Notes: a model not told the origin generated them from the sequence alone. Positions 13,521 to 27,205 are shown, counted from the stretch's first letter. The stretch is DNA of 64,000 bases from Bryobacterales bacterium (GCA_003170295.1 PNAJ01000148.1:3946-67945), one strand, 5' to 3'. Program-made: numbers and translations.

Positions 13521-13845
13521 GAAAAAGAAGACTCCACTTAACAGGTCGGACGCGAACAGATACGACTGTACAGACGTTTGCAGTATAAAACTGGAATACA
13601 AGAAATCACGGCAGGGCGCGGGTAGCTCACTTGGTACAACACGGGCTGGGAAGAAAGGTTGTGGGGCGGGCGGCGAAGCACTCCTGTCATTCTCATCCTT
13701 ATGATGCTTATTGAGCGGCGGAGGGGTGGATTTTTGAGAAAAAAGGAAGTGCTTGGCGCGGTAGTAGGGTCGTGTGGTATATCGATACGCCTTTTGTTAC
13801 AATGAATTAAGGGGATATAGGCCCCTTAAAGGATTTCCGGTTCCC

Positions 13846-14085
13846 ATGGCCACCAAACCTGCTTACGCCCAAGGCGCACAAATCGAGCATCCTAAGTTCG
13901 GGTTAGGAAGCGTGCTGTCTTGCAGCGACGAATATATTGTGATTAAATTCGACGAGCATGGCGAAAAGAAGTTCGTGCTCACGATCGTGCTGCCGAACCT
14001 GAAAAAGAGCGACCGGCAGCCTCCGGTAGAGAAGCGTCGAACGACAAAGAAGAAGGTGGCGGCGGCGCCGGTGGTAGCGACCTAG
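13846..14085 (+). CDS. Small hypothetical protein (HPKFGLGSV motif, lysine-rich tail)
   Basis: 79 aa from the internal ATG. The H.KFG.G.V motif recalls DUF3553/UvrD-C-terminal-like small domains. Confidence 0.5.
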   Translation: MATKPAYAQGAQIEHPKFGLGSVLSCSDEYIVIKFDEHGEKKFVLTIVLPNLKKSDRQPPVEKRRTTKKKVAAAPVVAT

Positions 14086-14121
14086 CGGATCGCTGGGTTA
14101 TGATGGGAGTGAACCGCTCAA

Positions 14122-14196
<75 letters not shown>

Positions 14197-14261
14197 TCTT
14201 TTCAATCACTTGGGGATAAAAGCCCACGATCTGTCACTCCAGTCACTCCATTAGGCAGCCA

Positions 14262-14480
14262 GCACTTCAGATTCGAGTTTTCCAACCGCCTCTGAACGCT
14301 GCCGCAAATCCGACTTCGTATAAACATCTAAGCGGACCCCAAGGCTGTGGCCCAACTGATCGGCCACCACCTTTGGATCGATGCCAGCCCTCCTTAGAAA
14401 GGCTCGCATGGGTCCGGCGCATCACTTGAAAATTTGCCCACTCTAACCGTTGCGCTTCGGCAATCTGGTGGAGTGTCATC
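14262..14480 (-). pseudogene. Tyrosine recombinase/integrase, C-terminal remnant (frameshifted)
   Basis: The minus strand reads ..VMRRTHASL.. in one frame, then AGIDPKVVADQLGHSLGVRLDVYTKS..* in another. This is the R-H-..-Y catalytic tail of phage-type integrases. No intact N-terminal part is present. Confidence 0.6.
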
Positions 14481-14790
14481 CTGGCAGCAACTGCGTCATG
14501 TTCGGATGAATGCCCATGGAAGCAGAGGCTGCCAAGTTGATCCCACATGTGCGCTTGAACGTGTCCTGGGCTACGCCTTGGCCGTTGTCGTACTTCACTC
14601 CCAGGTTGAAGCATGCTGGTTCAGAGCCCTGGTCGGCGGTGCGGATGGTGGAACTGGCTTCATATCTGCGATAGCGTTTGAAACTGAGTCGATTCGCCAG
14701 TTTTGACCGAGTTCTCATTCACCTGCATTTTCAGTGTTGATGTTGTCGTCGAAACTGGTATGCGATTTCACATCTGCTCTTAACCCCGCG

Positions 14791-15966
14791 TCAGTCTGGC
14801 GACCGGACGGATGCCTCGGCGGTCTGAAGGTCGAGGCCCACGCGCTCGCCGTTGATCAGGACGACGCTCGCGTCCAGCAATTGTTGCCCGGTGAGGTCGA
14901 ATTGCGCGTAACTGCGCAGAGCGCTCAAAGGAAATATGAATTCCACTGCCTCGCCGCCTTCCGCATTGGCGCCTGCCATGCGAACACTGGTGCTGAAATC
15001 AATTCCGCTGAAGTCGACGCTGTCTTTGAAGTAGGCGAGAACAGGGCGGACCAGGTGCGCGACGTGACGATCGAACGCCAGCGCGGCCAGCTTGTATTGC
15101 GATCCGGCATCGGATGCCGCGAGAGTCGTCGCGATCGGGATCTCCAGATATTGGCCGCCGCGAAACGCAATGAAAGATGGGGGAGCATAGGGCACGAAGT
15201 GCGCCTGTTGATCGAGATCCTTCAGCATCCTGGCCAGCGCATCGCGATAGTCGGATACCGGCTTCGATTCCGTTTCCAACTTCGCAGGCGCGCTGGGGAA
15301 CCGCGGTTCCGGTTTGGCGGACACCACGGACACCGGTATCGCCTGACCATCTTGTCGCTCGAAAGGCAAGAACGAAATCGGAGTGCGATTGAGGTATGCG
15401 GTTCCCTCCTGCACTGCGGCGGCGCGCCCGGCTTCATCGCGAGCCTCCACCAGGCGCTGCGCCGATGCCTTTGGCAGGATCAGGACGACATTTTCCGCCG
15501 ATTCCGTCTCGACCCCCAATACCTTCCTGATCACGTGGTGGGATATTTCAAGTGCGAACGCTTCCGGAACGTCGGCCCGCGCGAGGGCGGGTGCGGCGGC
15601 CTGCAGGATCGGCAGCATGACGTCGCGAAACGTTTGGCGCGTCCGTTCCTCCTTGCTCATCCGCTCGGCCGAATAAGCCGCGAAGTAATTCCCGGTGATC
15701 TTGAGAACCGTCTGTCCTTGATATTTATCGAATTGAATCGAGCGCTGATCGCTGCGCTCCTGCTCCCGCTCAGTCAGGTCCAGTTTGCGGCTGAAGTAGA
15801 AATGATACGGAAACTCGTGTTTGCCGAGCGCCGCGGTAATCGCGTGCAACTCCTCCAGATGGCTCTGCTGCAATGCGCGGATCGAGGGGTCCGCGATCTC
15901 GGCCGGCGATAACACTTGCCCGGTCGCTTGCCAAGCCAGAATCGCGAAAAGGCTAAGGATTCGCAT
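14791..15966 (-). CDS. Secreted hypothetical protein, last gene of the respiratory operon
   Basis: Signal peptide MRILSLFAILAWQATGQ. 14-nt overlap with the upstream gene. No recognisable cofactor motif. Confidence 0.6.
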   Translation of the reverse strand: MRILSLFAILAWQATGQVLSPAEIADPSIRALQQSHLEELHAITAALGKHEFPYHFYFSRKLDLTEREQERSDQRSIQFDKYQGQTVLKITGNYFAAYSAERMSKEERTRQTFRDVMLPILQAAAPALARADVPEAFALEISHHVIRKVLGVETESAENVVLILPKASAQRLVEARDEAGRAAAVQEGTAYLNRTPISFLPFERQDGQAIPVSVVSAKPEPRFPSAPAKLETESKPVSDYRDALARMLKDLDQQAHFVPYAPPSFIAFRGGQYLEIPIATTLAASDAGSQYKLAALAFDRHVAHLVRPVLAYFKDSVDFSGIDFSTSVRMAGANAEGGEAVEFIFPLSALRSYAQFDLTGQQLLDASVVLINGERVGLDLQTAEASVRSPD

Positions 15967-16672
15967 TAAATACTCCTTGGGGACGATAAGGTGGATCCGC
16001 GACCGCGCGGATATAAGCCGTCAACGCTTCAATGTCGCTCGCGGAAAGCGTAGGGCTATAAGGCGGCATCTCCGGCGATTTGCTGAGCGCGGCGCCGCCA
16101 TGGGTGATGATGGCAACTAGATTGGCGCGACTGATCTGGTTCAACGTCGCGCCATCGGAAAAAGCGTGCGGTGCGACGCTCAAATTGTCGTGGTTCGAAA
16201 CTCTTTCCGCGGTGGATTCGGAATTGTGGCATCGCGAACAGTATTTCTCATTCAACACCTGTCCCAGAGTCTGCTGGTAATCCAGAGCGATTTCAGCGAA
16301 CGTCACCTGAACCCGTTTCCCGGATTTGTCTTGCGTTGTGGCGACCAGCGAGGTTCTGCCGGATGCACCGCCCAGCCGGACCGTAGTGCTGAACTGGCCG
16401 TCGCTTCCCGTGAGTCCCGAGGGCGGATCGAAGTGCGCGCCGTCCATCGAGCTGAATTGCACCAACGCGCCGGCGACTCCCGTACCTTGCGCGTCGTTGA
16501 CTTGGGCGACCACCGGCTGATCGAGCGTCGCACCGGCGCCGGCCGTCTGCTTTTCCCCGCTGATGCCGACGATTGCCACACCGAACCCCGAGGCCACAGG
16601 CGCCGATGAGGACGATGGCGTCCGGTTGCATCCCGCTGCTGCCAGCAGCAGCAACAATGCGGCGGCCCTCAT
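15953..16672 (-). CDS. Lipoprotein with Ig-like (Big_1-like) domain and C-terminal monohaem cytochrome c
   Basis: Lipobox LLLAAAGC at the internal Met. An invasin-like beta domain is followed by CSRCH and a distal EMPPY Met-ligand motif. ATGA overlap with the upstream gene at 16669-16672. Confidence 0.75.
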   Translation of the reverse strand: MRAAALLLLLAAAGCNRTPSSSSAPVASGFGVAIVGISGEKQTAGAGATLDQPVVAQVNDAQGTGVAGALVQFSSMDGAHFDPPSGLTGSDGQFSTTVRLGGASGRTSLVATTQDKSGKRVQVTFAEIALDYQQTLGQVLNEKYCSRCHNSESTAERVSNHDNLSVAPHAFSDGATLNQISRANLVAIITHGGAALSKSPEMPPYSPTLSASDIEALTAYIRAVADPPYRPQGVFNANP

Positions 16673-18710
16673 CTCGATGCTCCTTTTCGAGGCGCGGCTT
16701 TTTGTTCCATTAAGAACGCCGTGATGGCGCGCGCATCCTCGTCGTTCATGTTCCAGTTCACCTCCAGAGTGCCTGGACGCAGCGCCTGCGCATTCTTCAG
16801 CCAGTGGAATATCCACTCCGGATTCAGCCTCAATCCCACCTCGGTGAGCGTCGGACCGATGTAGCCCTTGTCTTTAGCGGGATCGAGAATATGGCACGAA
16901 TTGCAGGCGTACTTGCCGTAATAAAGATCCTTGCCGTGCGCCGAATCGCCGCCCGCGAATTTCGCGGCGCCATCGAACGCGGCAGTCTGATACACAGTCA
17001 TGATGTAATCGGCCAGGACGCTAGCCTCTTCGTCGGTCATGTTGAACTTAGGCATGCGGCGGATCAGCGTTGGCCGAAGCGTGTTGGGGCGCTTCAAAAA
17101 ACTCACGAGCCAGCCTCGTTGTACCGAGCTCCCTTCCCACGTCAGCTCCGGCGCCATCGAGCCTCCGCGTCCATTGATTTCGTGACAACTGAAGCAGCGC
17201 ATGTCCGTCATCAACTGCCCCGCCCGCCCCGCCGGCTGATAGGTCGATGGTGGCGCGGCCTGGATTCGCAACGTGGCAGGCAACGTCTTTGCGCGAGTGG
17301 TCTGCGCGAGCAGCGCCGTCACCAGCGAGTCGACCTGCGAATCGGATAACGTGAACTTCGGCATCTTCAACGCGTTTCCGAATGACCGCGGGTTCCGGAT
17401 CTTGGCCGAGATGTAATCCGGCACCGTATGCGCCATCCCCGGCGCGAACAGGATCTTCGCGAGCGGCAGACTGCCCACGGCCGTCAATTCGGGCGCGAAA
17501 TTATCCGCGTGCGCGACGCCGTTGATTTCGTGGCACGACGCGCATCCGCGCTCGCTCACCAGCGTTTTGCCGTGTGCGATTTGCGCGGCCGTAGCCGTGT
17601 CCATGTGAACGTCCTTGAGAAAATCGGAATCCGTTTTGCTCCCGAGAAAACCCATCACGAGGCCAACGTCTTTTTCCTCGAAACGATAGTGCGGCATTGC
17701 TGTCTCGGGATCGTAAACCTTGGGATTGCGCAGCCAATCCGCCAGCCACTCCGGTTTGACCTTCGACCCGACCCGCGTCAACTCCGGTCCGATATTTCCT
17801 CCCGTCATCAGTCCCGCGGCGTTCTGCATTGCGTGGCAGGACGCGCAGAACGATTCCCCGTACACGCTCGATCCCTGCTGCACCGCCGCCGTATCGTCCT
17901 GCTTCGGAACCGCCGGAGTCTTGCGCGGCGCACCCGCAATATAAGGTGTGCTCTGGTTGATCAGAAACGCGGAAATATCGCGGGCGTCCTCGTCGCTTAA
18001 CTGGAAATTGGGCATGGTGGCCGTCGTCGCATACGCCTGCGGATTCTTGATCCATGCGAAAATCCATTCCCGCGTCGTCTTCTCCGCGACGTGCGCCAGC
18101 GACGGAGGATCGTCGGTCGCCGTCATTACGCGGCCTTCGGGCGATGCGATTTTATGGCAATGGACGCAGCCATACCGCGCCAGCATGTCTCTTCCCGCAT
18201 TGAGTTGAGGCGTTCCTTCGAGCGGTCGTTCGTGACACTGCCCGCACGACGATTCGACGTAGCGCGCCGGCAAAATCGCCTGTTCCCAAGCCTTTGTGCT
18301 GCTGTGTGCGTCCTCCACCGTCGTCGCGAAACCCTGTCCCCGATGGCACATCACGCATCCGAATTCGGTCAAGGAATGCGGAATCGGCGGATGCGGACGG
18401 AACGGCTGCGCCGCGACCCCGGCCAGCGACGCTTCCTTCAATCCCGAGTGACAAGTCGCGCAGCGGTCGACCACATCCAACTCCGGCAGCCAGATCTGTT
18501 GCACTCCTCCCTGAAATCGCCGCGCGAGCGACACGCCGTCGCTGCGATTGCGAATCAGGCTCTGGTATTCGTGCTGATAGTGCAGCCATTCGCGAAAATG
18601 ATCCTTCGCCGGCACCACCGCGAGCATCACCACGAGCACGACGCTCAGGGACCCGAACGCGCGCGCGCTGTCCCCGAACAAGAACTTCCATGCAGTGCGG
18701 ATTTTTTCGG

Positions 18711-18714
<4 letters not shown>
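16669..18714 (-). CDS. Membrane-anchored octahaem cytochrome c (4 clustered haems plus 4 class-I c domains)
   Basis: Eight CxxCH motifs: CATCH, CVMCH, CGQCH, CVHCH, CASCH, CASCH, CFSCH, CNSCH. The later domains carry MP.F Met-ligand motifs. N-terminal TM helix. ATGA overlap at 18711-18714. Confidence 0.85.
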
Positions 18715-19407
<693 letters not shown>

Positions 19408-19415
<8 letters not shown>

Positions 19416-20145
19416 GGGTTTTCTCTCCGGTGTGCAATCCGCCGTCCTTTCGGATTCGCCAGAAGTGAACCGCCAGGAACACCACGGCGATCAGCGGCAG
19501 GATCACGCAATGCAACACGTAAAATCGCAGCAGCGCATTGGCGTTCACCGTGTTGCCTCCCAAAATCAGGAAACGCGTTTTAGCCCCCATCAACGGCACC
19601 GCGGACATGATGTTGGAACCCACCGTGATCGCCCAGAACGCCAGTTGATCCCACGGCAGCAGGTATCCGGTGTAGCTCAGGAACAGTGTCAGCATGAGCA
19701 GCACCACGCCCACCACCCAGTTAAATTCGCGTGGCGGACGATACGCGCCGCGGTAGAACACTTTGAACATGTGCGCGAACACCAGCAGCACCATCGCATG
19801 CGCGCTCCAGCGGTGCAGATTCCGCAGGAACACGCCCGCCGAGACCACGAACTGCAAATCCTTCATGTCCGCGTAGCCTTGCGGAACCGAAGGATGGTAA
19901 TACAGCATCAGCAGAATTCCCGTGACCACCAGAATCAGAAAGCAGCCCAGGCTCAGCGTCCCCAAATACCAGGTCACGCCGAAATCCAGCGCCCTCCGCC
20001 GCACCTTCACCGACGCCAGGTGCATGAACACGTTCTGCTGAACCGCCAGCGACCGGTGCAGATTGGTATCGCCCGTTCCCGCCCGGAACACCGAACGCCA
20101 CACGCGCGAGTTGCGTACGCCAACCACCGCCTCAGAGAGTTTCAT
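19408..20145 (-). CDS. Cytochrome b6-type (N-terminal four-helix haem-binding core)
   Basis: Helix [18 protein letters not shown] has a His-His spacing of 14. Helix [18 protein letters not shown] has a spacing of 15, as in b6-type proteins. [11 protein letters not shown] motif. Confidence 0.9.
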
Positions 20146-20149
20146 CGTG

Positions 20150-20638
20150 TTAAATCCTGACGAACTGTTTTTGCGTCAGAGGCTCGCTGCGGTCGATCAG
20201 CAGATTGCCATCGTCGTTCACCCACGTCTTCAACCACGGTAGAGGTCGCGGAGCCGGCCCCTCGAACTTGATTCCATCCGCATGGAATTTGCTGCCGTGG
20301 CACGGACACGCGATAATGCCGAGGTCGGGTTTCCACGCCGTGAGACATCCCAGGTGCGTACACACCGCCGAGAGCGCATAAATGCCTTCGGCCCGATGCA
20401 CGATATAGAGGCCACTCGCCACATCGGGTGTTACCGAATCCAGAGGATAGCGATCGGGCTTCCCCGCATCGACAATCGGAGACGGTTCATACAACGCGTT
20501 CGGCGAGAGGAACGAGTAGCCGAATACGGCCGACCCGGCCCCCGCGATCGCTACCGCTCCGAGGCCGACGGCCGTGAACCTGCGGCGGCTGCATTCTTCG
20601 CAAGCGCCGCTGCAAGCCTTTTTTGCTTCCCCTGGCAT
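20150..20638 (-). CDS. Rieske [2Fe-2S] protein with Tat signal
   Basis: CTHLGC ... CPCHGSKF boxes. [11 protein letters not shown] twin-arginine motif. An unusual Cys-rich tail, CSGACEEC, precedes the RR motif. Confidence 0.9.
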
Positions 20639-20648
20639 CTCATTCTCC

Positions 20649-22568
20649 TCATTCCGAAAAAACCGGCGCTTGAAGCTTCATCGAATACGCTTCCATCGTG
20701 ATCGTGTTCACCGGGCATCGCTCCGCGCACAGCCCGCACCGGATGCACCGCGTTTCATCCTTCAACATGGCCGCGCCGGTCACGATCCCGAGTTCCTCCG
20801 CGGCCACGCCGTCCAACTCCACGCGGAAAATTCCGCTGTCACCGCCAATCTGTTCGAGCACGCCGGGCGGGAACTCAATCCGGTCGAGCGAGACCAGCTG
20901 GATGCAGTTCTCCGGGCACACATCCACGCAGCCTCCGCACAGGATGCATTGCGATCCGTCCGCTTCGTTGCCCTCGAACACCGTGTTTATCCAGCAACGC
21001 AGGCAGCGACGCGCCTCGCGGCGGGCCGTCTCCTCGTCGTAGACCAACTCGACTTCGGTCACCCCAGTGCGCCGGTCCAGAGGAAGCGTCGGAATCGTCT
21101 GCCGCCCGATCTCCATGTAGTCCGGATACATTTTGTGATGCTCCAGAATCTCGACTTCGATCTCCGGCTCATCATGTTTCCGCCCCGTCAGGCGCTCGTC
21201 GATTCCGTTCGCGATCCGCTTGCCGTCGCCCACGCTGTCGATGATCAGCCGCGGCCCGAAAACGCAATCCCCTCCCGCGAAAACGCCCGCCGCGCTGGTC
21301 ATCAATGTCCGGCGGTCGGCGACGATCAAACCACGGGGCGAAATGTCGACGCCGTCCTCCGGCTTCAAAAAATCGAGCCTCGGAGCTTGACCGATCGCCA
21401 GAATCACTGTGTCGCATTCAATCGTCGTCTCGCTGCCCTCTTGAAACGTAGGATTGAATTTCCCTTGGGCGTCGAACACGGCCTTCGTCCGGATCGTTTC
21501 GAGGCCCACCACCTTGCCGTCGCGGCCCAGTACCCGCACGGGACCTTGCCCGTCGTGCATCCGCACGCCCTCGATCTCCGCCTCTTCGATTTCTTCAGAC
21601 GCCGCCGGCATCTCCTCGCGCCTCTCGATGCACACGATGTTCACCTCGCGCGCGCCCAAACGCAGCGCGGAGAGCGACACGTCCACCATCTCGCGCGTGG
21701 CCACCGCCGCGATATTTTCTTCGCTCGGCGTCGCGCCCTCGTCTTCCCCGCCGTGCTGCTTCAGTACTTCGCGAACCGCGCTCCGAGCCACGTCCATCGC
21801 GACGTTTCCTCCGCCGATCACCACCACCCTTTCGCCGATGCTGAACCGGTATCCCAGGTTCGCGTTGAGTAAAAATTCAATTCCTTTATGAACTCCGTCC
21901 AAATCGACTCCAGGAATCGAGAGGTCGCGGCTGCGATGCGCTCCCACCGCGAGCACCACGGCATCGAAGCCTTGCGCGCGCAGTCCGGAGACCGTAAAAT
22001 CGCGGCCCGCGGCCGTATTCAGCTTCAGGGTGACATCCCCGGCCTCCAGGATTTCGCGAATCTGCGCCTCCACCACCGCGCGCGGAAGCCGGTACTCGGG
22101 AATGCCCAAATGGAGCATCCCGCCCGCGACCTGCGCCGCCTCGAAGATCGTGATCGAGTAACCCATCAGCGCCAGGTCGTACGCCGCCGACAATCCCACT
22201 GGCCCGCTCCCGATAATCGCGACCTTGTAAGGAAGCTTTTCGACGCTACAGCGCTTCGGCTCGAGAGGGTTCCGCGACTCCGGCCCGTACCGCTCCGTGA
22301 GAAAACGTTTCAACGCCCGGATCGAGATCGGTTTGTCGATGGCGCCGCGGCGGCAAGCGGTCTCGCATGGGTGCGCGCACACCCGCCCGCACACGCTCGC
22401 CATCGGGTTCGGATCGCGCGCGACCCGGTACGCCTCCTCGAATCGCCCATCCGCGATCAGCGAAACGTACTTCCCGGCATTGGTGCCAGCCGGGCATGCC
22501 ATCATGCAAGGGAAGTTCGTGTTGAGCCATTCGCGGTCGACGCGCTTGTCTTTCAGGCGTTCGAGCAT
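20649..22568 (-). CDS. GltD-like NAD(P)H-dependent oxidoreductase fused to a 2x[4Fe-4S] ferredoxin domain
   Basis: N-terminal CMMACPAG...CGRVCAHPCETAC (Fer4_20-like). Two Rossmann motifs, IIGSGPVGLSAA and VIGGGNVAMD. C-terminal CILCGGCVDVCP and CIRCGLCAERCP. No signal peptide. Confidence 0.9.
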   Translation of the reverse strand: MLERLKDKRVDREWLNTNFPCMMACPAGTNAGKYVSLIADGRFEEAYRVARDPNPMASVCGRVCAHPCETACRRGAIDKPISIRALKRFLTERYGPESRNPLEPKRCSVEKLPYKVAIIGSGPVGLSAAYDLALMGYSITIFEAAQVAGGMLHLGIPEYRLPRAVVEAQIREILEAGDVTLKLNTAAGRDFTVSGLRAQGFDAVVLAVGAHRSRDLSIPGVDLDGVHKGIEFLLNANLGYRFSIGERVVVIGGGNVAMDVARSAVREVLKQHGGEDEGATPSEENIAAVATREMVDVSLSALRLGAREVNIVCIERREEMPAASEEIEEAEIEGVRMHDGQGPVRVLGRDGKVVGLETIRTKAVFDAQGKFNPTFQEGSETTIECDTVILAIGQAPRLDFLKPEDGVDISPRGLIVADRRTLMTSAAGVFAGGDCVFGPRLIIDSVGDGKRIANGIDERLTGRKHDEPEIEVEILEHHKMYPDYMEIGRQTIPTLPLDRRTGVTEVELVYDEETARREARRCLRCWINTVFEGNEADGSQCILCGGCVDVCPENCIQLVSLDRIEFPPGVLEQIGGDSGIFRVELDGVAAEELGIVTGAAMLKDETRCIRCGLCAERCPVNTITMEAYSMKLQAPVFSE

Positions 22569-22573
22569 GGCCT

Positions 22574-23140
22574 CTATTTCGCCAGACTGAACGCCACCGT
22601 CGCGCTACCGGCAAGGGTCACCGGTTTAGTTTGGATTTTCATCCCTTCGTGCCATGCCGATACTGAATAGCTTCCATCCGGCACGTTCTCGATTTTGAAA
22701 TTTCCAGACGCATCTGCGATGGCGTAATACGGAGTCGGCGACACGATTATGTATCCCGACATTTCCGGATGTACGTTGCACAGCAGAGGCACCGCGCCCA
22801 CCGTGTCGAATTTGAAGGAGCGCTCTTCTCCGGTCGGCCAGGTGCCCATGTTGTGGCTCAACTTTTTGTTGCCGCTGATCGACGGCCAGAAGATGTTGTG
22901 TTGCACTTTGTCGCTGTTCAAAAATTGCACCGTCGAGCCGAGCTGCACCGCCAGTACGTGCGGCTGAAACAAGAGCGACTTCTGATCCATAACGACCGGC
23001 TTCGCCGCCGCCGGAAATGTCTTTCCCGCAATCGCCTCTACATACACCACCGAGCCCGCCTTGCCGGGGCTCACAGTTCCCGAAATGACGCCTGCTCTGG
23101 TCAGAATCGCTACTGCAAACAGCGGAATGATTTTTTTCAT
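22574..23140 (-). CDS. Secreted type-1 copper (cupredoxin) protein with C-terminal CarboxypepD_reg-like domain
   Basis: Signal peptide. Ligand pattern H (VQHNIF) ... C-x2-H-x2-M (LLCNVHPEM). The tail GNFKIENVPDGSYSVSAW follows. Confidence 0.75.
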   Translation of the reverse strand: MKKIIPLFAVAILTRAGVISGTVSPGKAGSVVYVEAIAGKTFPAAAKPVVMDQKSLLFQPHVLAVQLGSTVQFLNSDKVQHNIFWPSISGNKKLSHNMGTWPTGEERSFKFDTVGAVPLLCNVHPEMSGYIIVSPTPYYAIADASGNFKIENVPDGSYSVSAWHEGMKIQTKPVTLAGSATVAFSLAK

Positions 23141-23148
23141 AGGTCCTT

Positions 23149-24759
23149 TCAGTACACAAATTCGAGCGCGAACAACACCGTGTTCACGCGAAACGGGTTC
23201 GCTGCTAACGGGTTTCCGTTGGGAAGGCTCGCCAGAGTCACAAACTGCCGCGGCCGGATCTGGTATTCCATGGAAACCTTGATGTTCGGGTGAATCAGGA
23301 ACTGCACGCCGGGAGTAAATCGGTTCCGGCTTGAATTGTAGGGCGCGAAATAGGACGTGTTCGTCGCAAAATCCAGACCGTTAATACGATCCGCGGTCGA
23401 GTTCACCTGATCCCAGCGCATGATCGCCATCAGCCAAGGCTTCATCAGATAATCGGCCTGCATAAAGCCTCCATTAAAGGTGGCCGGAACGCCGCGCGAA
23501 AACCCCGCAGTGGTCGTGGTGGTCGGATCGATAGGCAAAGGGATCGGCGCGCCCGTCGCATCCACCGGCAGCATGTTCGAATCGTGCCCCACCATATATA
23601 GCCCGTAGAGATTGAACGTCCTGTAGTTGAAGCTGAAATCTCCGCCTGCGCGGTAATACGGCTCCCGGTTGTTGAAGAACGTGTTAGCCGTCGCGGGAAC
23701 CGTTTCGAGCGAGTTCCCGTGCAAATAGAAGGTCCCGAGGTTCAAATAGGTGTGATCGTGAGGACCCGTCGCACCGGCCGCTTGGATGTCTTTCCGAATC
23801 TTGGGATCGCTCTCCAGATTGAAGCGGTAAGACGCACGCGCATAGACGTTCTTGATGCCTGAATCGGAGCTGAACCCCACTCCGCCGCCCGCACTTGCCG
23901 TCGCCGATGGAACAAACGGAAACTGATTCGATCCCTGAGAGACTCCAGTAGTGTTTTGATCGAAAATCGCTACCGAATAGTGGTATCCGCTGTAGGTATG
24001 ACCGCCACTCAACTCAAAGCCTCGCGCCGCGTTGGCCAAAGCAGACTGATTCGCCACGTTTTGCTGCCTTGCTCCGATGTTGGCTTGCTGATAAATGTCG
24101 TAGGGACTGAGGTTTATCCCTCGCGCCTGCGTGAACGGCAGGTCCAGCTCGAACTGCCCCGCGCGGAGAGAAAGCAGGTCGTTCGGCAACTTCAGCAGGC
24201 GTCCGACGTTGACGAATTTCAGGTAGGCGTCTCCCAATCCACCGTTACTGTTGTTGCCGGAGACGCTGAGATCGTCGTCCACCCAGAATGCGATGTCGCT
24301 TCCGAAATTTCCAGCTGTAAAAATGCTGAAAAGTCCGGCTTGAAAATCCGTTGCTGGTATCACTCCCGGGACTGTGCCTGGAGCCGTTAAGGTGTCGAAC
24401 CGGTTCCGGTTCGACGTCACTTGAAAGAACTGGTTGTAGCGCAGTCCTATGGGAGGCATACCCGGCATGGTCCCCGGCCACACCGAATTGGGAAACGATT
24501 CTTTGTTCGCCGGAGCCCCCAGCATCACCGGCGCTTCCTTAAGGAAGGTATCGTCGTCGGTTGGAAACTTGAAACCCGCGTCTTTAAAGGCTTTACCGAA
24601 ATCGTTCAGCTTCGGAAAATCCATGTGGCATGTCTGGCAGGACGTCTGATACTTCCGCGCAAACGGCGGAATTGCGTAACTCTTCGACGAAGAGAGTAAT
24701 ACGAGCATCGCGGCCGCTGCCGCCACACTCGGAACAAACGTTCGGACAAACCTGAACAC
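23149..24759 (-). CDS. Outer-membrane beta-barrel protein with N-terminal monohaem c motif (Cyc2-like fused cytochrome-porin candidate)
   Basis: Signal peptide ending SYA. Mature N-terminus IPPFARKYQTSCQTCH. About 480 aa of alternating beta-strand-like sequence rich in G/Y/N/F. C-terminal ALEFVY has a terminal aromatic. GGAGG lies 5 nt before the GTG at 24759. Confidence 0.7.
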   Translation of the reverse strand: MFRFVRTFVPSVAAAAAMLVLLSSSKSYAIPPFARKYQTSCQTCHMDFPKLNDFGKAFKDAGFKFPTDDDTFLKEAPVMLGAPANKESFPNSVWPGTMPGMPPIGLRYNQFFQVTSNRNRFDTLTAPGTVPGVIPATDFQAGLFSIFTAGNFGSDIAFWVDDDLSVSGNNSNGGLGDAYLKFVNVGRLLKLPNDLLSLRAGQFELDLPFTQARGINLSPYDIYQQANIGARQQNVANQSALANAARGFELSGGHTYSGYHYSVAIFDQNTTGVSQGSNQFPFVPSATASAGGGVGFSSDSGIKNVYARASYRFNLESDPKIRKDIQAAGATGPHDHTYLNLGTFYLHGNSLETVPATANTFFNNREPYYRAGGDFSFNYRTFNLYGLYMVGHDSNMLPVDATGAPIPLPIDPTTTTTAGFSRGVPATFNGGFMQADYLMKPWLMAIMRWDQVNSTADRINGLDFATNTSYFAPYNSSRNRFTPGVQFLIHPNIKVSMEYQIRPRQFVTLASLPNGNPLAANPFRVNTVLFALEFVY

Positions 24760-25020
24760 AGTCACCTCCACTTAGCTTTGGGGACTGCATCGCACTTGGA
24801 TGGCCTTTGCACAAATGCCCCTGTTTTTAAGGTTGGCGCAGGGAGACGCCCGCGCGATATCGCACAGCGTGCGTCAGATGACGCCATATAATGACCAAAT
24901 AATGCCGAAAAAGTGGCTTGATGGAGCCTTAAATGACCATATCTCGGCCACGTGCTGGTCCTGCCGCGATTGAGCCAACCTGCGGGCCTGGACTCGACCT
25001 CGACAATCACCTTCTGTACT

Positions 25021-25061
25021 GCTGGACGTCGCCGGTTCAAACTCGGTTTCCCGCTCCATCT
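25021..25061 (+). other. Partial tRNA-Gly 3' half (attR-like direct repeat)
   Basis: GCTGGACGTCGCCGGTTCaAaCtCGGTtTCCCGCTCCATCT compared with tRNA positions 14159-14199. No matching 5' half lies upstream. Confidence 0.7.
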
Positions 25062-25084
25062 AAAAGACTTACCTATTCCAATCC

Positions 25085-25645
25085 TTACTTTTTGATCGTG
25101 ACGCGCACGGCTGCAGGCCGGATATCGATGCGGTCGATGTTGTATCCCATCTCAAACTTCTCGCCAATCTTCGCCGATGGATAAAGAGGCAGGAAGAACG
25201 TCTTAATCAGAAAATCGAGCACCGTTCCCGTGGCTACCACTCCTGAGACTTCGACACGGGTCAGGTCCACGACGCATTGGCCGCCGCCAGATTTCACCCG
25301 AATCGAAATGGTAACCGGCCGCTCACCCTCAATCATCCGAGCCATCACCCAGTTGGTCGCTTTGCCCTGGGCGTGGCGCATTTTCAAAAAATCCATCAGC
25401 GCGTAGGCGGTACCAATATCGTTGCCGAGCGTCACACGCTGGTTGCGGATTCCCTGCGGGACGATGCCGGGGACCATATAATAGGCCCATGAATTGATCT
25501 CCTGCAAGGTAAAGACGATGACGGAGCCGGGCTTCGGGTGGCCGTTTTCAATGGTGTCGAGTTTGGCCAATGCGCTGCGAACGTACGCGTCGCCCGCAGG
25601 AAGCGCCGGCGCACACAGGAGAGCCAACGTCAGCAGCCGGTGCAT
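25085..25645 (-). CDS. Secreted hypothetical protein
   Basis: Signal peptide MHRLLTLALLCAPALPAG. Coding-like composition. Confidence 0.6.
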   Translation of the reverse strand: MHRLLTLALLCAPALPAGDAYVRSALAKLDTIENGHPKPGSVIVFTLQEINSWAYYMVPGIVPQGIRNQRVTLGNDIGTAYALMDFLKMRHAQGKATNWVMARMIEGERPVTISIRVKSGGGQCVVDLTRVEVSGVVATGTVLDFLIKTFFLPLYPSAKIGEKFEMGYNIDRIDIRPAAVRVTIKK

Positions 25646-25654
25646 GTTACCAGT

Positions 25655-27205
25655 CTAGTGCTTATAGCTCGCGTTGATCCACTCGTCGACATCCTTGTGC
25701 AGTTTGTCGTTGGCCTTTTTGTCGATGTACATCATGTGGCCGCCTTCGTAATAGGTGAAGCTCACATTTTTGCGAACCGCCGGTTCCAGGCCCATGTGCG
25801 CTACGGTCTGCTCGATCCCGTTGAAGGGGGTCGCGTGATCGTAATAACCGCAGATCACCAGCAGTTTCAGGTGCGTCTGCTGCGTCATGGCGGAGCGGAG
25901 CGCTTCCGCCGGGCCGCCGGGTTGGCCCTGATCCCAGGGCTGCACGCGAGCCGTTACGGTGTAATACATATCGGTCGACCATTTGAGGTCGCGGCGCACG
26001 TAATCCTGGAACGTTGCGACGTACGCGCCCTCATAGGAAGCTTCGCTCGAATCGTATTCGACGCGCTCGCCCGCGGCATCGAAATCAAAGCCAGTGAAGC
26101 GCGCGTCGAGGCGGCCGACGGTTTCGCGTTTGTCGCGCAGCAACTCCTTGAACCAGCGCTGCGGGCTGACCCGAAGATTCGTCTCCTCTATGTACTTCGG
26201 CGCGAGGCCGGTGAAACGGGCCAGTTCCTTCACGATTTGCGCTTTCTCCGCCGCGGAGATTTGATCGCCTTTTTCGAGCGCCGCCGCATACGGACCGTGG
26301 GAGAAATCGCGGGCCTTCAGCGCCACTTGTTCAATGGTCAATTTCTGCAGGTCCGGAGGGAGCAACTTATGAAACCAGCCGGAACAGACAATCGTCGGAA
26401 GCCAAAACTTGGTGCGATCGTCCGCGCCCCAGTTCCCGAATCCGACCGAAGATAGCAGAGCGACGCCGTTCAAATACATTTGATGGCGCTGTTCGAGCAC
26501 GTTCGATAGTTGCGCCGAGCGCGTGGTGCCATAGCTTTCGCCGATCAGAAATTTCGGCGAGAGCCAGCGCTCATTGCGGGTGACATATTGATAGATGAAA
26601 TCGGAGAACCACGTGGCGTCCTGCACCACACCATAAAACTGCGAGGCATTTTCACCGGGAACGGGACGGCTGTAGCCAGTGGAGACGGCATCGATAAACA
26701 CCATGTCAGTCGCGTCGAGGAACGAATCCTCGTTATCGGCGATTTCGTACGGAGCCGGTCCCAGGCCGTGCCCATCGGGCGCAAGTACGACATGCTTCGG
26801 TCCCAGGCCCATGTGCGTGAAAGACGACGCCGAGCCGGGGCCTCCGTTATAGACGAACGACAGAGGACGCTTGGCGGCATCGGCGACGTCTTCCTTCGTG
26901 TAAGCGACGTAGAAGAACGACGCCTTGGGCGCGCCCGCATCGTCCTTGATGACGTAGTTGCCGGCGGTGGCGGTGTAACCGATCTGCTGGCCGCCGATAA
27001 TAGCCTTGTGATGCGTGATCGAAGTTTTTTCTTCAGGCGGCGGCAATCGCGGGGTCTGCTGGGTGGTGGCGGGCGCGGGGGTCGCAGCGGCCTGCGGAGT
27101 CTGGGCGTTGGCTCCGCCTCGTCCACCTCCACGACCTTGCGCGGTTGCCTCACACGCGGCGATGAGCAGACCAGCGCCGAGCGCGGCGATTCGATTCGTT
27201 GTCAT
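25655..27205 (-). CDS. Secreted S10-family serine carboxypeptidase-like protein
   Basis: YNGGPGSASS and IGESYG nucleophile-elbow motifs. Signal peptide and a Gly/Arg-rich linker. Confidence 0.8.
   Translation of the reverse strand: MTTNRIAALGAGLLIAACEATAQGRGGGRGGANAQTPQAAATPAPATTQQTPRLPPPEEKTSITHHKAIIGGQQIGYTATAGNYVIKDDAGAPKASFFYVAYTKEDVADAAKRPLSFVYNGGPGSASSFTHMGLGPKHVVLAPDGHGLGPAPYEIADNEDSFLDATDMVFIDAVSTGYSRPVPGENASQFYGVVQDATWFSDFIYQYVTRNERWLSPKFLIGESYGTTRSAQLSNVLEQRHQMYLNGVALLSSVGFGNWGADDRTKFWLPTIVCSGWFHKLLPPDLQKLTIEQVALKARDFSHGPYAAALEKGDQISAAEKAQIVKELARFTGLAPKYIEETNLRVSPQRWFKELLRDKRETVGRLDARFTGFDFDAAGERVEYDSSEASYEGAYVATFQDYVRRDLKWSTDMYYTVTARVQPWDQGQPGGPAEALRSAMTQQTHLKLLVICGYYDHATPFNGIEQTVAHMGLEPAVRKNVSFTYYEGGHMMYIDKKANDKLHKDVDEWINASYKH

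What the first reader, a model, noticed from the sequence alone, without database searches (positions are those of the whole stretch)
20649..22568. Cytoplasmic GltD-like flavoprotein with ferredoxin domains encoded 10 nt upstream of the Rieske gene
**Seen in sequence.**
- The N-terminal Cys clusters are typical of glutamate synthase small subunits (CMMACPAG, CGRVCAHPCETAC).
- There are two dinucleotide-binding motifs.
- A C-terminal 2x[4Fe-4S] domain is present.
- There is no signal peptide.
- No glutamate synthase large-subunit gene is nearby.

**Inference.** This protein is the likely NAD(P)(H) entry or exit point of the membrane complex. It could drive quinol:NAD(P)+ reverse or bifurcating electron flow, or supply NAD(P)H-driven reduction of the periplasmic haems.
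Basis: partly seen in the sequence, partly recalled or inferred. Interest (0 to 1): 0.7.

Follow-up and report, generated by a model that had tools for sequence, protein, structure and literature searches.

The report
NADH-linked flavoprotein of Rieske/cytochrome b complex
This gene encodes a soluble iron-sulfur flavoprotein that is almost always found next to Rieske/cytochrome b genes, as in anammox bacteria, so it most likely connects a quinol-oxidising membrane complex to cytoplasmic NAD(H) in a soil acidobacterium.

Summary
Window 20649-22568 (-) encodes a 639-aa cytoplasmic protein with a GltD/NfnB-type Fe-S domain, FAD and NAD(P) Rossmann folds and a C-terminal 2x[4Fe-4S] ferredoxin domain. 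It ends 10 nt before a Rieske gene.

It is not a glutamate synthase subunit.
- In 68 of 72 informative loci from at least 15 phyla, its homologue is directly followed by Rieske, split b6-type cytochrome b and subunit IV genes, usually also a multihaem cytochrome c.
- It aligns over its full length (35% identity) with the Kuste4570-type NAD(P) reductase of a Kuenenia Rieske/cyt b operon. The cytochrome b is 50% identical, and the Rieske protein's best solved relatives are the anammox ones.

So it belongs to a known but biochemically unproven kind: a Rieske/cyt b complex with a cytoplasmic NAD(P) reductase.

This version differs from the anammox one.
- The NADP-specifying YRR motif is replaced by C-I-E, which predicts NAD(H).
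- A 34-aa insert sits in the NAD domain.
- Cytochrome b has no haem c_n cysteine.
- The operon starts with a Cyc2-type cytochrome-porin and a cupredoxin.

The direction of electron flow is inferred, not shown. Quinol to NAD+ by Qo-site bifurcation is favoured.

The parts
20649..22568 (-). Fe-S flavoprotein, 639 aa, cytoplasmic. It has a GltD/NfnB-like core plus a C-terminal 2x[4Fe-4S] ferredoxin domain. This is the finding.
   Evidence: ORF. Pfam and NCBIfam; the best NCBIfam match, NF009410, scores 461.5 against a cut-off of 516. PDB sequence and fold neighbours are NfnABC, StnC and NfnB. Synteny.
22290..22517 (-). N-terminal Fe-S domain (aa 18-93). C25, C64 and C68 are assigned to the FAD-proximal cluster, with K87 at the position of the fourth ligand. 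C21 and C72 are two ligands of the distal cluster.
   Evidence: Pfam Fer4_20. Alignment to T. maritima NfnB, combined with the NfnB ligand list in PMC7596348. Invariance.
21180..22229 (-). FAD and NAD(H) Rossmann domains (aa 114-463). C313-I314-E315 sits where NfnB has the NADP-binding YRR.
   Evidence: Pfam Pyr_redox_2. Alignments. All 71 linked homologues have x-[L/I/V]-E at this position.
21669..21770 (-). Clade-specific insert of about 34 aa in the NAD-binding domain (aa 267-300). It is absent from NfnB, GltD and the Kuenenia homologue.
   Evidence: PDB alignments break at aa 266 and resume at aa 300. pLDDT is below 50 in the model. Insert lengths by clade. Absent in Kuenenia.
20994..21083 (-). 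Permuted segment (aa 496-525) ending in R-C522-L-R-C525. It is homologous to the N-terminal residues 13-42 of NfnB, which carry distal-cluster ligands Cys39 and Cys42.
   Evidence: HMMER alignment to 4ylf_B and 5jca_L. C522 and C525 are invariant.
20685..20963 (-). C-terminal 2x[4Fe-4S] ferredoxin domain (aa 536-628), with an insert of about 56 aa between the two CxxCxxCxxxCP motifs.
   Evidence: Pfam Fer4 and Fer4_7. All eight cysteines are invariant. Weak PDB hits to FwdF 5t5i_F.
20639..20648 (-). 10-nt spacer GGAGAATGAG between the flavoprotein stop and the Rieske start. It contains a ribosome-binding site.
   Evidence: Sequence read.
20150..20638 (-). Rieske [2Fe-2S] protein, 162 aa. It has an SRRRF twin-arginine-like motif, one membrane helix, and the motifs CTHLGC and CPCHGSKF.
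   Evidence: Pfam. Best PDB hits are 9rk4_A (89 bits) and 9rk3_A (77 bits), the anammox Rieske proteins. Motifs.
19408..20145 (-). Split b6-type cytochrome b, 245 aa. His42 is invariant. YLGT replaces the haem c_n CxGG motif.
   Evidence: Pfam and NCBIfam. 50% identical to the Kuenenia cytochrome b. Alignment of 70 homologues. PDB b6 hits.
18711..19415 (-). Subunit IV-like membrane protein, 234 aa, with about 5 hydrophobic helices and the Qo-site motif [11 protein letters not shown].
   Evidence: Pfam Cytochrom_B_C. Hydropathy. The same motif occurs in Kuenenia subunit IV.
16669..18714 (-). Membrane-anchored octahaem cytochrome c. The likely start is the ATG at 18714-18712, which overlaps the subunit IV stop as ATGA. 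The mechanical ORF runs on to 18843.
   Evidence: 8 CxxCH motifs and one hydrophobic helix. Pfam. ATGA overlap read.
15953..16672 (-). Lipoprotein with a Big_1 domain and one haem c. The likely start is the ATG at 16672-16670 (MRAAALLLLLAAAGC), which overlaps the octahaem stop.
   Evidence: Pfam. One CxxCH. Sequence.
14791..15966 (-). Secreted protein of 391 aa with no family match. It is the last gene of the cluster and is conserved only in Terriglobia-type loci.
22574..23140 (-). Periplasmic cupredoxin (plastocyanin/azurin family) fused to a CarboxypepD_reg-like domain, 188 aa. Its stop lies 5 nt before the flavoprotein start.
   Evidence: Pfam. The C-N-V-H-P-E-M copper-site motif is conserved in 27 loci. 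Spacing read.
23149..24771 (-). Cyc2-type fused monohaem cytochrome-porin, 540 aa, and the first gene of the cluster. It has a signal peptide, the sequence AIPPFARKY-QTS-CQTCH-MDF-PKL, and a C-terminal ...LEFVY.
   Evidence: Sequence. The motif definition AXPXFAR[Q/K][T/Y]...CXXCH...PXL comes from PMC8406198. It is conserved in 23 loci.

Best explanation
The gene encodes the cytoplasmic (N-side) subunit of a b6-type Rieske/cytochrome b complex of a Bryobacteraceae acidobacterium.

The protein carries FAD, an NAD(H) site and four Fe-S clusters:
- a distal [4Fe-4S] cluster built from C21, C72 and the permuted C522 and C525;
- an FAD-proximal cluster with only three cysteines (C25, C64, C68) and Lys87 at the fourth-ligand position;
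- two [4Fe-4S] clusters in the C-terminal ferredoxin domain.

These clusters form a wire between the n-side of cytochrome b and the flavin. A proposed extra haem b, held by the invariant His42 of the cytochrome b dimer, may be part of that wire.

The favoured mechanism is as follows. Menaquinol is oxidised at the Qo site. One electron goes to the high-potential Rieske cluster, the octahaem cytochrome c and the cupredoxin. The low-potential electron crosses the two b haems. Instead of, or besides, reducing quinone at a Qi site, it runs through the Fe-S wire to FAD and reduces NAD+.

**Shown here:** the domain and ligand anatomy, the cytoplasmic location, the operon structure, the conserved linkage, and homology to the anammox system.

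**Inferred:** physical docking, cofactor identities, NAD(H) specificity and the direction of flow.

My estimates are about 0.8 that it is a functional subunit or partner of the complex, and about 0.5 that the physiological direction is quinol to NAD+.
For: **Operon.** Nine genes lie on one strand, separated by gaps of 5-10 nt or by overlapping start and stop codons.

**Linkage.** A scan of one genome per species returned 80 loci. Of the 72 with at least 1.5 kb downstream, 70 hold Rieske and cytochrome b genes. In 68 they lie immediately downstream on the same strand. The order is flavoprotein-Rieske-b in 61 loci and flavoprotein-b-IV-Rieske in 7. The phyla include Acidobacteriota, Verrucomicrobiota, Planctomycetota, Actinomycetota, Chloroflexota, Nitrospirota, Bacteroidota, Myxococcota, Zixibacteria and others.

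**Homology to the anammox system.** A Ca. Kuenenia contig holds Rieske, a 581-aa flavoprotein, cytochrome b, subunit IV, a multihaem cytochrome and an HAO-like gene.
- The flavoproteins align end to end: 35% identity, E 4e-98.
- The cytochromes b are 50% identical from residue 2, and His42 aligns with the Kuenenia His43.
- The Rieske protein's best PDB hits are the two anammox Rieske proteins.
- Subunit IV shares the [11 protein letters not shown] motif.

**Anatomy matches the published anammox models (PMC12954380).**
- The structural neighbours are the same: NfnABC 9bov/9bp5 and, weakly by sequence, FwdF 5t5i.
- There are four clusters, and the one next to FAD lacks a fourth cysteine and has a lysine nearby. 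Here K87 is invariant at the position of NfnB Glu117.
- Subunit IV has about five helices.
- The Rieske Ser/Phe pair is the same as in Kustd1480, which was measured at +335 mV.

**The Qo machinery is integral.** Rieske, subunit IV and a multihaem cytochrome c are co-conserved with the flavoprotein. This argues for Qo-site chemistry rather than a simple membrane-anchored dehydrogenase.

**Cytoplasmic.** No signal peptide or membrane helix.

**NAD(H).** C-I-E replaces YRR. DsrL enzymes without YRR are NAD(H)-specific in assays (PMC7596348).
Against: - No biochemical evidence exists for this protein, or for any member of the kind. NAD(P)+ reduction by the anammox complexes is still a proposal (PMC12954380).
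- The flavoprotein is not in the same subclade as the Kuenenia subunit. The Kuenenia protein has YRR, lacks the insert, and is closer to YRR-type representatives, some of them multidomain proteins of 780-1500 aa. The window protein ranks only 88th of 223 by similarity to it.
- Cytochrome b here lacks the haem c_n cysteine that the anammox models include in the path.
- The host lineage is known as heterotrophic (my own knowledge), and a heterotroph has ample NADH. The need for quinol-driven NAD+ reduction is therefore not obvious.
- Docking, the extra haem b and the permuted cluster assembly rest on alignment and on other authors' AlphaFold3 models. No coordinates were examined here.
Confidence: 0.55

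Rival explanations
1. The complex is the same but flow runs the other way. The flavoprotein is an NADH-oxidising entry module. Electrons pass from FAD through the Fe-S clusters into the b haems. They then either reduce menaquinone at an n-side site, making a non-canonical NADH:quinone reductase anchored by cytochrome b, or they join an electron from reduced periplasmic carriers (Fe(II) via Cyc2 and cupredoxin) at the Qo site to reduce quinone (confurcation).
For: The same synteny and anatomy apply. GltD/NfnB-type modules work reversibly, and DsrL enzymes catalyse both directions (PMC7596348). Dibrova et al. view such proteins as dehydrogenases anchored by cytochrome b (PMC5600118). A heterotroph has NADH to spend. 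Quinol-oxidising cytochrome bd genes lie 7 kb away.
Against: A plain NADH:quinone reductase would not need a Rieske protein, subunit IV or a multihaem cytochrome c, yet these are co-conserved in nearly every locus. Hauser et al. argue that NAD(P)H-to-quinone flow through such a complex would waste a large amount of energy compared with complex I. With a high-potential Rieske centre, suggested by the Ser/Phe pair, forward bifurcation is the exergonic direction.
Confidence: 0.25
2. The flavoprotein is a free soluble NAD(P)H:ferredoxin-type or NAD(P)H:acceptor oxidoreductase, like NfnB, DsrL or SudA. It is co-transcribed with the complex, for example to supply or drain a soluble carrier, and does not dock on it.
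For: The architecture is the same as DsrL, which is a soluble partner of DsrAB. There is no membrane segment. Two loci hold Rieske/cyt b genes 6 kb away, one clade member has none nearby, and a Brocadia paralogue sits next to methylene-THF reductase genes.
Against: Adjacency with tiny or overlapping spacers is conserved across at least 15 phyla. The clade-specific features (insert, Lys87, short N-terminus) track the Rieske/cyt b linkage. The invariant cytochrome b His42 matches a proposed contact site. The anammox homologues were reported by others to be expressed in complexes that contain both cytochrome b and the large oxidoreductase subunit (de Almeida 2016, as cited in PMC5600118).
Confidence: 0.1
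3. It is a genuine glutamate synthase small subunit (GltD) whose large-subunit partner is encoded elsewhere.
For: The core is homologous to GltD: PDB 2vdc_G at 184 bits, and Foldseek hits to A. brasilense GltS.
Against: The GltD models score far below their curated cut-offs: TIGR01317 at 204 against 447.7, TIGR01318 at 230 against 483. The protein is closer to NfnABC/StnC and NfnB than to GltD. It has an extra ferredoxin domain, permuted cluster ligands and no YRR. No gltB lies in the window. The conserved neighbours are Rieske/cyt b genes.
Confidence: 0.01

Closest known systems
Anammox Rieske/cytochrome b complexes with an NAD(P) reductase subunit (Kuenenia stuttgartiensis Kuste4569-4574 and Kustd1480-1485; Kartal 2013, de Almeida 2016, Hauser 2025 = PMC12954380)
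   Same: - One operon holds the Rieske protein, a split b6-type cytochrome b, a subunit IV with about 5 helices, a multihaem cytochrome c in place of cytochrome f/c1, and a cytoplasmic FAD/Fe-S protein.
- Flavoprotein: 35% identity over its full length. Cytochrome b: 50% identity. The Rieske protein's best PDB hits are the anammox ones.
- Four Fe-S clusters, with the FAD-proximal one short of a cysteine.
- The cytochrome b His42/His43 is conserved.
- The Rieske Ser/Phe pair is as in Kustd1480.
   Different: - The flavoprotein belongs to another subclade: C-I-E instead of YRR, which predicts NAD(H) rather than NADP(H), and a 34-aa insert in the NAD domain.
- Cytochrome b lacks the haem c_n CxGG motif.
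- The gene order is flavoprotein first.
- There is no HAO-like octahaem protein. Instead the operon holds a Cyc2-type cytochrome-porin, a cupredoxin and a different octahaem cytochrome c.
- The host is a soil acidobacterium without an anammoxosome.
NfnB-like module of the Bfu-family transhydrogenases NfnABC and StnABC (PDB 9bov/9bp5, 9n5u, 8oh5)
   Same: These are the best sequence and fold matches in the PDB: 299 bits, and Foldseek E of 1e-46 to 1e-49. The arrangement is the same circular permutation, with the RCxxC segment after the flavin domains, and lysine rather than glutamate at the proximal cluster.
   Different: Those proteins are 950-1180 aa. They have an N-terminal extension and a formate-dehydrogenase-like C-terminal part, carry YRR, and work with NuoE/NuoF-like soluble subunits. 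None of these features or partners is present here.
DsrL, the Fe-S flavoprotein partner of dissimilatory sulfite reductase (PMC7596348)
   Same: The overall plan and size are the same: an N-terminal two-cluster domain, FAD with an embedded NAD(P) domain, a linker and a C-terminal 2x[4Fe-4S] ferredoxin domain. DsrL-1A also lacks YRR, is NAD(H)-preferring, and has an insert of about 32 aa in the NAD(P) domain.
   Different: DsrL is defined by its linkage to dsrAB. Here the conserved partners are Rieske/cyt b genes. DsrL keeps the N-terminal position of the distal-cluster ligand (NfnB Cys42), whereas here that segment is permuted to aa 496-525. No DsrL sequence was available for direct comparison.
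NfnB/NfnL of NfnAB (NfnSL) and GltD of glutamate synthase
   Same: The Fe-S/FAD/NAD(P) core is homologous: 248 bits to 4ylf_B and 184 bits to 2vdc_G, with TM-scores normalised to the target length of 0.77-0.80.
   Different: There is an extra ferredoxin domain, a permuted CxxC pair, Lys in place of the Glu ligand, no YRR, and no NfnA or GltB partner gene.
Acidithiobacillus ferrooxidans Fe(II) pathway (Cyc2, rusticyanin, bc1 'uphill' branch to NAD+) and the Geobacter extHIJKLMNOPQS cluster
   Same: Both combine an outer-membrane porin-type protein, periplasmic carriers and a Rieske/cyt b complex. The window's first gene carries the Cyc2-defining motif. Its cytochrome b, subunit IV and cytochrome c score near the cut-offs of the Geobacter ExtP, ExtQ and ExtS models.
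   Different: In Acidithiobacillus, NAD+ is reduced by a separate complex I driven by proton-motive force. No flavoprotein is part of the bc1 operon, and none is listed for the ext cluster. Here the NAD(H) module is in the same operon.

Membership tests
Rieske/cyt b complex with cytoplasmic NAD(P) reductase (anammox type) | The flavoprotein gene lies in one operon with a Rieske protein, a split b6-type cytochrome b and subunit IV | tested here: met
   Gaps of 5-10 nt or overlapping codons. The linkage is conserved in 68 of 72 loci.
Rieske/cyt b complex with cytoplasmic NAD(P) reductase (anammox type) | The flavoprotein is homologous to Kuste4570/Kustd1483 | tested here: met
   35% identity over 625 aligned columns with the Kuste4570 orthologue of a Ca. 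Kuenenia contig, E 4e-98. It falls in a different subclade, however. Kustd1483 was not compared.
Rieske/cyt b complex with cytoplasmic NAD(P) reductase (anammox type) | Four Fe-S clusters lead to FAD, and the FAD-proximal cluster lacks a fourth cysteine and has a lysine nearby | tested here: met
   Tested by alignment only. C21, C72, C522 and C525 form one set. C25, C64 and C68 plus K87 form the second. Eight ferredoxin cysteines form the other two. All are invariant.
Rieske/cyt b complex with cytoplasmic NAD(P) reductase (anammox type) | Cytochrome b has the N-terminal histidine proposed to bind an extra haem b (His43 of Kuste4571) | tested here: met
   His42 aligns with His43 and is invariant in 70 linked cytochromes b. 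Haem binding itself was not tested.
Rieske/cyt b complex with cytoplasmic NAD(P) reductase (anammox type) | Haem c_n site (CxGG) in cytochrome b | tested here: not met
   The window has Y-L-G-T where Kuenenia has C-M-G-G. Only 1 of the 70 linked homologues has the cysteine.
Rieske/cyt b complex with cytoplasmic NAD(P) reductase (anammox type) | The flavoprotein is physically part of the membrane complex and reduces NAD(P)+ | not testable with these tools
   This needs complexome profiling, purification and enzyme assays.
Glutamate synthase small subunit (GltD) | Scores above the curated family cut-offs and has a GltB partner | tested here: not met
   TIGR01317 scores 204 against 447.7, TIGR01318 230 against 483, and TIGR01316 282 against 472. 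No gltB lies in the window.
NfnB (NfnAB/NfnSL transhydrogenase large subunit) | N-terminal CxxC, a Glu ligand at the proximal cluster, a YRR NADP site and an adjacent NfnA gene | tested here: not met
   The CxxC is permuted to aa 522-525. Lys87 replaces the Glu. C-I-E replaces YRR. None of the neighbours is NfnA-like.
NCBIfam NF009410 (PRK12771, 'NAD(P)-binding protein') | Whole-protein score at or above the curated cut-off | tested here: not met
   The score is 461.5 bits against a cut-off of 516, although the match covers the full length (aa 15-626 to profile positions 44-563 of 566).
DsrL | The gene is from an organism with dsrAB and has the DsrL domain order with an N-terminal two-cluster domain | tested here: inconclusive
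   The domain order is similar. The distal-cluster segment is permuted. The conserved neighbours are Rieske/cyt b genes, not dsr genes. The rest of the genome is unseen.
Cyc2 fused cytochrome-porin (the neighbouring gene 23149-24771) | A signal peptide, a single CXXCH, the upstream AXPXFAR[Q/K][T/Y] motif, a PXL motif 4 residues after CXXCH, and a length of at least 365 aa | tested here: met
   The sequence reads AIPPFARKY-QTS-CQTCH-MDF-PKL in a 540-aa protein. The motif is conserved in 23 loci. The beta-barrel fold was not modelled.

The most novel reading that the evidence does not exclude
In Terriglobia and a few neighbouring lineages the whole operon may be a single electron conduit from the outer membrane to the cytoplasm. 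The chain would be a Cyc2-type cytochrome-porin, a cupredoxin, an octahaem cytochrome c, the Rieske/cyt b complex and an NAD+ reductase.

It would couple extracellular iron redox chemistry (or another high-potential periplasmic branch) to NAD+ reduction by Qo-site bifurcation. That is a redox-driven 'uphill' route, replacing the reversal of complex I driven by proton-motive force that classical iron oxidisers use.

It would also mean there are at least two separately recruited flavoprotein lineages on Rieske/cyt b complexes: an NAD-type with the insert, and the YRR NADP-type of anammox bacteria.
Probability: 0.2. Interest if true: 0.8.

Novelty: new member of a known kind. Interest (0 to 1): 0.5.

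Why it matters
Whether a Rieske/cytochrome b complex can send its low-potential electron to NAD(P)+ instead of back to quinone has been an open proposal since it was made for anammox bacteria. Those organisms are slow-growing and hard to manipulate.

This window and the 68 syntenic loci show that the same kind of complex is widespread. It carries an NAD-type flavoprotein and occurs in at least 15 phyla, including abundant soil Acidobacteriota whose relatives can be cultured aerobically. That offers a more tractable system for testing the idea.

The sequence comparison also gives concrete targets:
- the permuted cluster ligands C522 and C525;
- Lys87;
- the C-I-E motif in place of YRR;
- the 34-aa insert;
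- His42 of cytochrome b.

The linkage to a Cyc2-type cytochrome-porin and a cupredoxin suggests a connection to iron redox cycling in soils and peat.

Tried and rejected
1. **GltD reading.** Rejected. The curated family scores are not reached, no gltB is present, and the conserved neighbours are Rieske/cyt b genes.
2. **Brocadia locus L078.** I first took it for the anammox counterpart. It is a paralogue with a C-terminal FlpD (MvhD-like) domain, next to methylene-THF reductase genes, and falls outside the linked clade.
3. **Cysteine-rich N-terminus of the Rieske protein (CSGACEEC).** I checked it as a possible extra metal site that could contact the flavoprotein. Only two close relatives have a partial CxxC, so it is not a family feature.
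4. **Promoter and terminator scan of 13400-25800.** It found fewer sites than the shuffles did, so it does not help to delimit the operon.
5. **Supplement of Hauser et al.** It holds no sequences. I obtained a Kuenenia operon indirectly instead, through the PDB Rieske sequence.
6. **Literature on the cyc2-cupredoxin-flavoprotein-Rieske/cyt b arrangement in Acidobacteriota.** Searches found no paper describing it in the held library. This is absence in that library only.
7. **Demmer 2015 (NfnB structure).** The paper is not held. The ligand numbering and the role of YRR were taken from PMC7596348.
8. **NJ tree.** It is a quick distance tree on one MAFFT alignment without support values. I used it only for coarse grouping.


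Full report
**1. What is there**

Window 20649-22568 on the minus strand is an ATG-initiated ORF of 639 aa.

- Pfam finds a Fer4_20 domain (aa 18-93), a Pyr_redox_2 flavoprotein core (aa 114-448) and two 4Fe-4S ferredoxin motifs (aa 540-624).
- Two dinucleotide-binding motifs are present, G120xG122xxG125 and G252GG254NVA.
- The protein has no signal peptide and no hydrophobic segment. The highest 19-residue Kyte-Doolittle mean is 1.41.
- Its TGA is followed by GGAGAATGAG and then the ATG of a Rieske gene, a gap of exactly 10 nt with a GGAG ribosome-binding site.
- The window has no ORF of 1000 aa or more. The other large ORFs are a subtilase, a MacB/FtsX permease, an amino-acid permease, an AMP-binding enzyme, GatB and the like. 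No glutamate synthase large subunit is nearby.

**2. The operon**

Nine genes lie head to tail on the minus strand, separated by gaps of 5-10 nt or by overlapping ATGA start/stop codons. In order:

| Coordinates | Product |
|---|---|
| 23149-24771 | 540-aa secreted protein with one CxxCH |
| 22574-23140 | 188-aa cupredoxin |
| 20649-22568 | The flavoprotein |
| 20150-20638 | Rieske protein |
| 19408-20145 | b6-type cytochrome b |
| 18711-19415 | Subunit IV-like protein with about five helices |
| 16669-18714 | Membrane-anchored octahaem cytochrome c |
| 15953-16672 | Big_1/monohaem lipoprotein |
| 14791-15966 | Secreted protein of unknown family |

The closest database proteins come from Bryobacteraceae (Acidobacteriota). 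One is 100% identical, and the nearest species-representative genome is 89% identical.

**3. Is the linkage more than chance?**

I aligned the protein with 22 full-length representatives of 38-58% identity. I used that alignment to scan one genome per bacterial and archaeal species, which returned 80 loci. I then searched them with the window's neighbouring proteins.

- Of 72 loci with at least 1.5 kb downstream, 70 encode both Rieske and cytochrome b homologues.
- In 68 these lie immediately downstream on the same strand.
- The order is flavoprotein-Rieske-b-IV in 61 loci. It is flavoprotein-b-IV-Rieske in 7 loci, from Actinomycetota and Chloroflexota.
- A multihaem cytochrome c follows in most loci.
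- The loci come from Acidobacteriota, Eisenbacteria, Zixibacteria, Verrucomicrobiota, Planctomycetota, Actinomycetota, Chloroflexota, Bacteroidota, Ignavibacteriota, Kryptoniota, Calditrichota, Nitrospirota, Myxococcota and others.

This rules out a chance neighbour and the GltD reading. The curated GltD, GltA and NfnB-related NCBIfam models are also all far below their cut-offs. The best model, NF009410 (PRK12771), reaches 461.5 of the 516 bits required.

**4. Anatomy of the flavoprotein**

*Relatives in the PDB.* By sequence, the nearest solved relatives are the NfnB-like modules of the Bfu-type transhydrogenases NfnABC and StnABC (299-269 bits). NfnB/NfnL follow (248-219 bits), then GltD (184 bits). 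An AlphaFold2 model (mean pLDDT 84.5, pTM 0.83) gives the same order by Foldseek.

Residues 496-525 (PLDRRTGVTEVELVYDEETARREARRCLRC) align with residues 13-42 of T. maritima NfnB. That is the N-terminal segment ending in Cys39 and Cys42. Residue 19 onward aligns with NfnB residue 45 onward. The protein is thus circularly permuted relative to NfnB and GltD, as are the NfnABC/StnC subunits.

*Cluster ligands.* I used the NfnB ligand list given by Löffler et al.: distal Cys39/42/47/100 and proximal Cys51/90/96/Glu117.

- The distal cluster here would be bound by C522, C525, C21 and C72.
- The proximal cluster would be bound by C25, C64 and C68, with Lys87 in the place of Glu117.
- All of these residues are invariant in 71 Rieske/cyt b-linked homologues.
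- C60 corresponds to NfnB Cys86, which is not on that ligand list, and is not conserved.
- With the eight invariant ferredoxin cysteines, the protein can hold four clusters.

*Nucleotide specificity.* Where NfnB has Y310-R311-R312, which hold the 2'-phosphate of NADP(H), this protein has C313-I314-E315. All 71 linked homologues have x-[L/I/V]-E. DsrL enzymes without YRR are NAD(H)-specific in assays. I therefore predict NAD(H). This is an inference.

*Insert.* A 34-aa insert (aa 267-300) interrupts the NAD domain. It is poorly modelled and marks the linked clade. In a quick NJ tree the insert has a median length of 24 aa inside the clade and 2 aa outside it.

**5. Comparison with the known system**

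*What the literature says.* Hauser et al. 2025 describe two Kuenenia Rieske/cyt b complexes (Kuste4569-4574 and Kustd1480-1485) that contain putative NAD(P) reductases, Kuste4570 and Kustd1483. They review the proposal that Qo-site bifurcation drives NAD(P)+ reduction. Their AlphaFold3 models show:

- four [4Fe-4S]/[3Fe-4S] clusters;
- an FAD-proximal cluster lacking a fourth cysteine, with a buried lysine nearby;
- structural similarity to NfnABC (9bp5) and FwdF (5t5i);
- a five-helix subunit IV;
- a novel haem b held by His43 of the two Kuste4571 cytochromes b.

Dibrova et al. [quoted passage not shown] The kind is therefore known.

*Direct homology test.*

- The window's Rieske protein has as its best PDB hits two chains, 9rk4_A (89 bits) and 9rk3_A (77 bits). 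Both score well above any b6f or bc1 Rieske protein.
- Their Ser/Tyr and Ser/Phe pairs match Kuste4569 and Kustd1480 as described.
- Database relatives of 9rk4_A are from Kuenenia, Brocadia, Jettenia and Scalindua.
- One of these led to a Ca. Kuenenia contig (L081) with Rieske, a 581-aa flavoprotein, cytochrome b, subunit IV, a multihaem cytochrome and an HAO-like gene.
- The window flavoprotein aligns with the Kuenenia one end to end (35% identity, E 4e-98).
- The cytochromes b are 50% identical from residue 2, and His42 aligns with His43. His42 is invariant in all 70 linked cytochromes b.
- Subunit IV shares the motif [11 protein letters not shown].

**6. Differences from the anammox system**

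- The Kuenenia flavoprotein has YRR and no insert. It is closer to YRR-type representatives than to the window protein, which ranks 88th of 223. The two flavoproteins belong to different subclades of one family.
- The window cytochrome b has Y-L-G-T where Kuenenia has C-M-G-G. It therefore lacks the covalent haem c_n site. Only one of the 70 linked homologues keeps the cysteine.
- The periplasmic partners differ. There is no HAO-like protein.
- The first gene of the operon instead carries the motif that Keffer et al. give as diagnostic of the Cyc2 fused cytochrome-porin family: AXPXFAR[Q/K][T/Y], then CXXCH, then PXL at the fourth residue after it. Here it reads AIPPFARKY-QTS-CQTCH-MDF-PKL, in a 540-aa protein with a signal peptide and a C-terminal ...LEFVY.
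- The same motif is kept in 23 related loci. The cupredoxin with C-N-V-H-P-E-M is kept in 27.

**7. How it most likely works**

*Shown:* the protein is cytoplasmic, has the ligand sets for FAD, a nicotinamide nucleotide and four Fe-S clusters, and is genetically locked to a complete Qo-type Rieske/cyt b module.

*Inferred:* it docks on the n-side of the cytochrome b dimer. Its ferredoxin domain takes electrons from haem b_N, possibly through an extra His42-ligated haem b. These electrons reduce NAD+ at the flavin. The partner electron from quinol oxidation leaves through the Rieske centre, the octahaem cytochrome and the cupredoxin.

*Arguments for this direction:*

- The Rieske Ser/Phe pair equals that of Kustd1480, measured at +335 mV. 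A high-potential Rieske centre would make the low-potential branch strong enough to reduce NAD+.
- The strict co-conservation of the Qo machinery argues against a plain cytochrome b-anchored NADH dehydrogenase.

The reverse direction (NADH in) remains possible at about 0.25. A soluble, non-docked role is unlikely, at about 0.1.

**8. Verdict**

Its interpretation is largely right but not new. This is a new member of a known kind, with variant features: an NAD-type site, an insert, no haem c_n, and a Cyc2/cupredoxin front end.

Its value is practical. It places a long-debated, never-demonstrated type of Rieske/cyt b complex in widespread, aerobic, potentially culturable soil bacteria, and it names residues to test.

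Noticed in passing
window 23149-24771 (-): The first gene of the operon encodes a 540-aa protein with a signal peptide, one haem motif and the Cyc2-defining sequence AIPPFARKY-QTS-CQTCH-MDF-PKL. It ends in ...LEFVY, like an outer-membrane barrel. It is a candidate fused cytochrome-porin iron oxidase. The motif is conserved upstream of the flavoprotein in 23 loci (Terriglobia, Eisenbacteria, Thermoanaerobaculia and a second acidobacterial clade).
   Followed up: partly
window 22574-23140 (-): A periplasmic cupredoxin (plastocyanin/azurin family) fused to a CarboxypepD_reg-like domain. The copper-site motif C-N-V-H-P-E-M is conserved in 27 related loci. Together with the Cyc2-like gene it resembles the Cyc2/rusticyanin pair of acidophilic iron oxidisers.
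   Followed up: partly
window 20020-20022 (-), cytochrome b His42: This N-terminal histidine (N-V-F-M-H-L) is invariant in all 70 flavoprotein-linked cytochromes b. It aligns with His43 of the Kuenenia cytochrome b, the residue proposed by Hauser et al. to bind an extra haem b at the dimer interface. I could not test whether it is absent from cytochromes b that have no flavoprotein partner.
   Followed up: partly
window 19957-19968 (-), cytochrome b aa 60-63: The haem c_n attachment motif CxGG is Y-L-G-T here. It lacks the cysteine in all but one (L071, Nitrospirota) of the 70 linked homologues, whereas Kuenenia has C-M-G-G.
   Followed up: yes
window 20591-20614 (-), Rieske aa 9-16: The cytoplasmic N-terminus of the Rieske protein holds C-S-G-A-C-E-E-C just before the SRRRF twin-arginine-like motif. 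Only two close relatives (L001, L012) keep a CxxC there, so it is specific to this lineage and remains unexplained.
   Followed up: yes
window 29291-31636 (-): Two adjacent ORFs of 442 and 338 aa, on the same strand and 4.5 kb upstream of the operon, read like the two subunits of cytochrome bd quinol oxidase. I judged this from the translations only and ran no family search.
   Followed up: no
L078:2753-4825 (Candidatus Brocadia sp.): A paralogue of the flavoprotein (40% identity) carries a C-terminal FlpD/MvhD-like domain and sits next to methylene-tetrahydrofolate reductase genes (DUF5981 and MTHFR). It also has C-L-E instead of YRR. This is a different use of the same module.
   Followed up: partly
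L027, L034, L049, L051, L065, L076, L079: In the Actinomycetota and Chloroflexota loci the gene order is flavoprotein, cytochrome b, subunit IV, Rieske, rather than flavoprotein, Rieske, cytochrome b. In L050 and L058 the Rieske/cyt b genes lie about 6 kb upstream of the flavoprotein.
   Followed up: no
window 18711-18714 and 16669-16672 (-): The likely starts of the octahaem cytochrome c gene and of the lipoprotein cytochrome c gene each overlap the preceding stop codon as ATGA. The mechanical ORFs (724 and 287 aa) therefore overstate these genes by 43 and 48 codons.
   Followed up: yes
window 19408-20145, 18711-19415, 16669-18843 (-): The cytochrome b, subunit IV and multihaem cytochrome score close to, but below, the cut-offs of the NCBIfam models for Geobacter ExtP (262.6 against 290), ExtQ (51 against 150) and ExtS (85 against 100). 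The Geobacter ext cluster also holds a porin-like protein, but no flavoprotein is described for it.
   Followed up: partly
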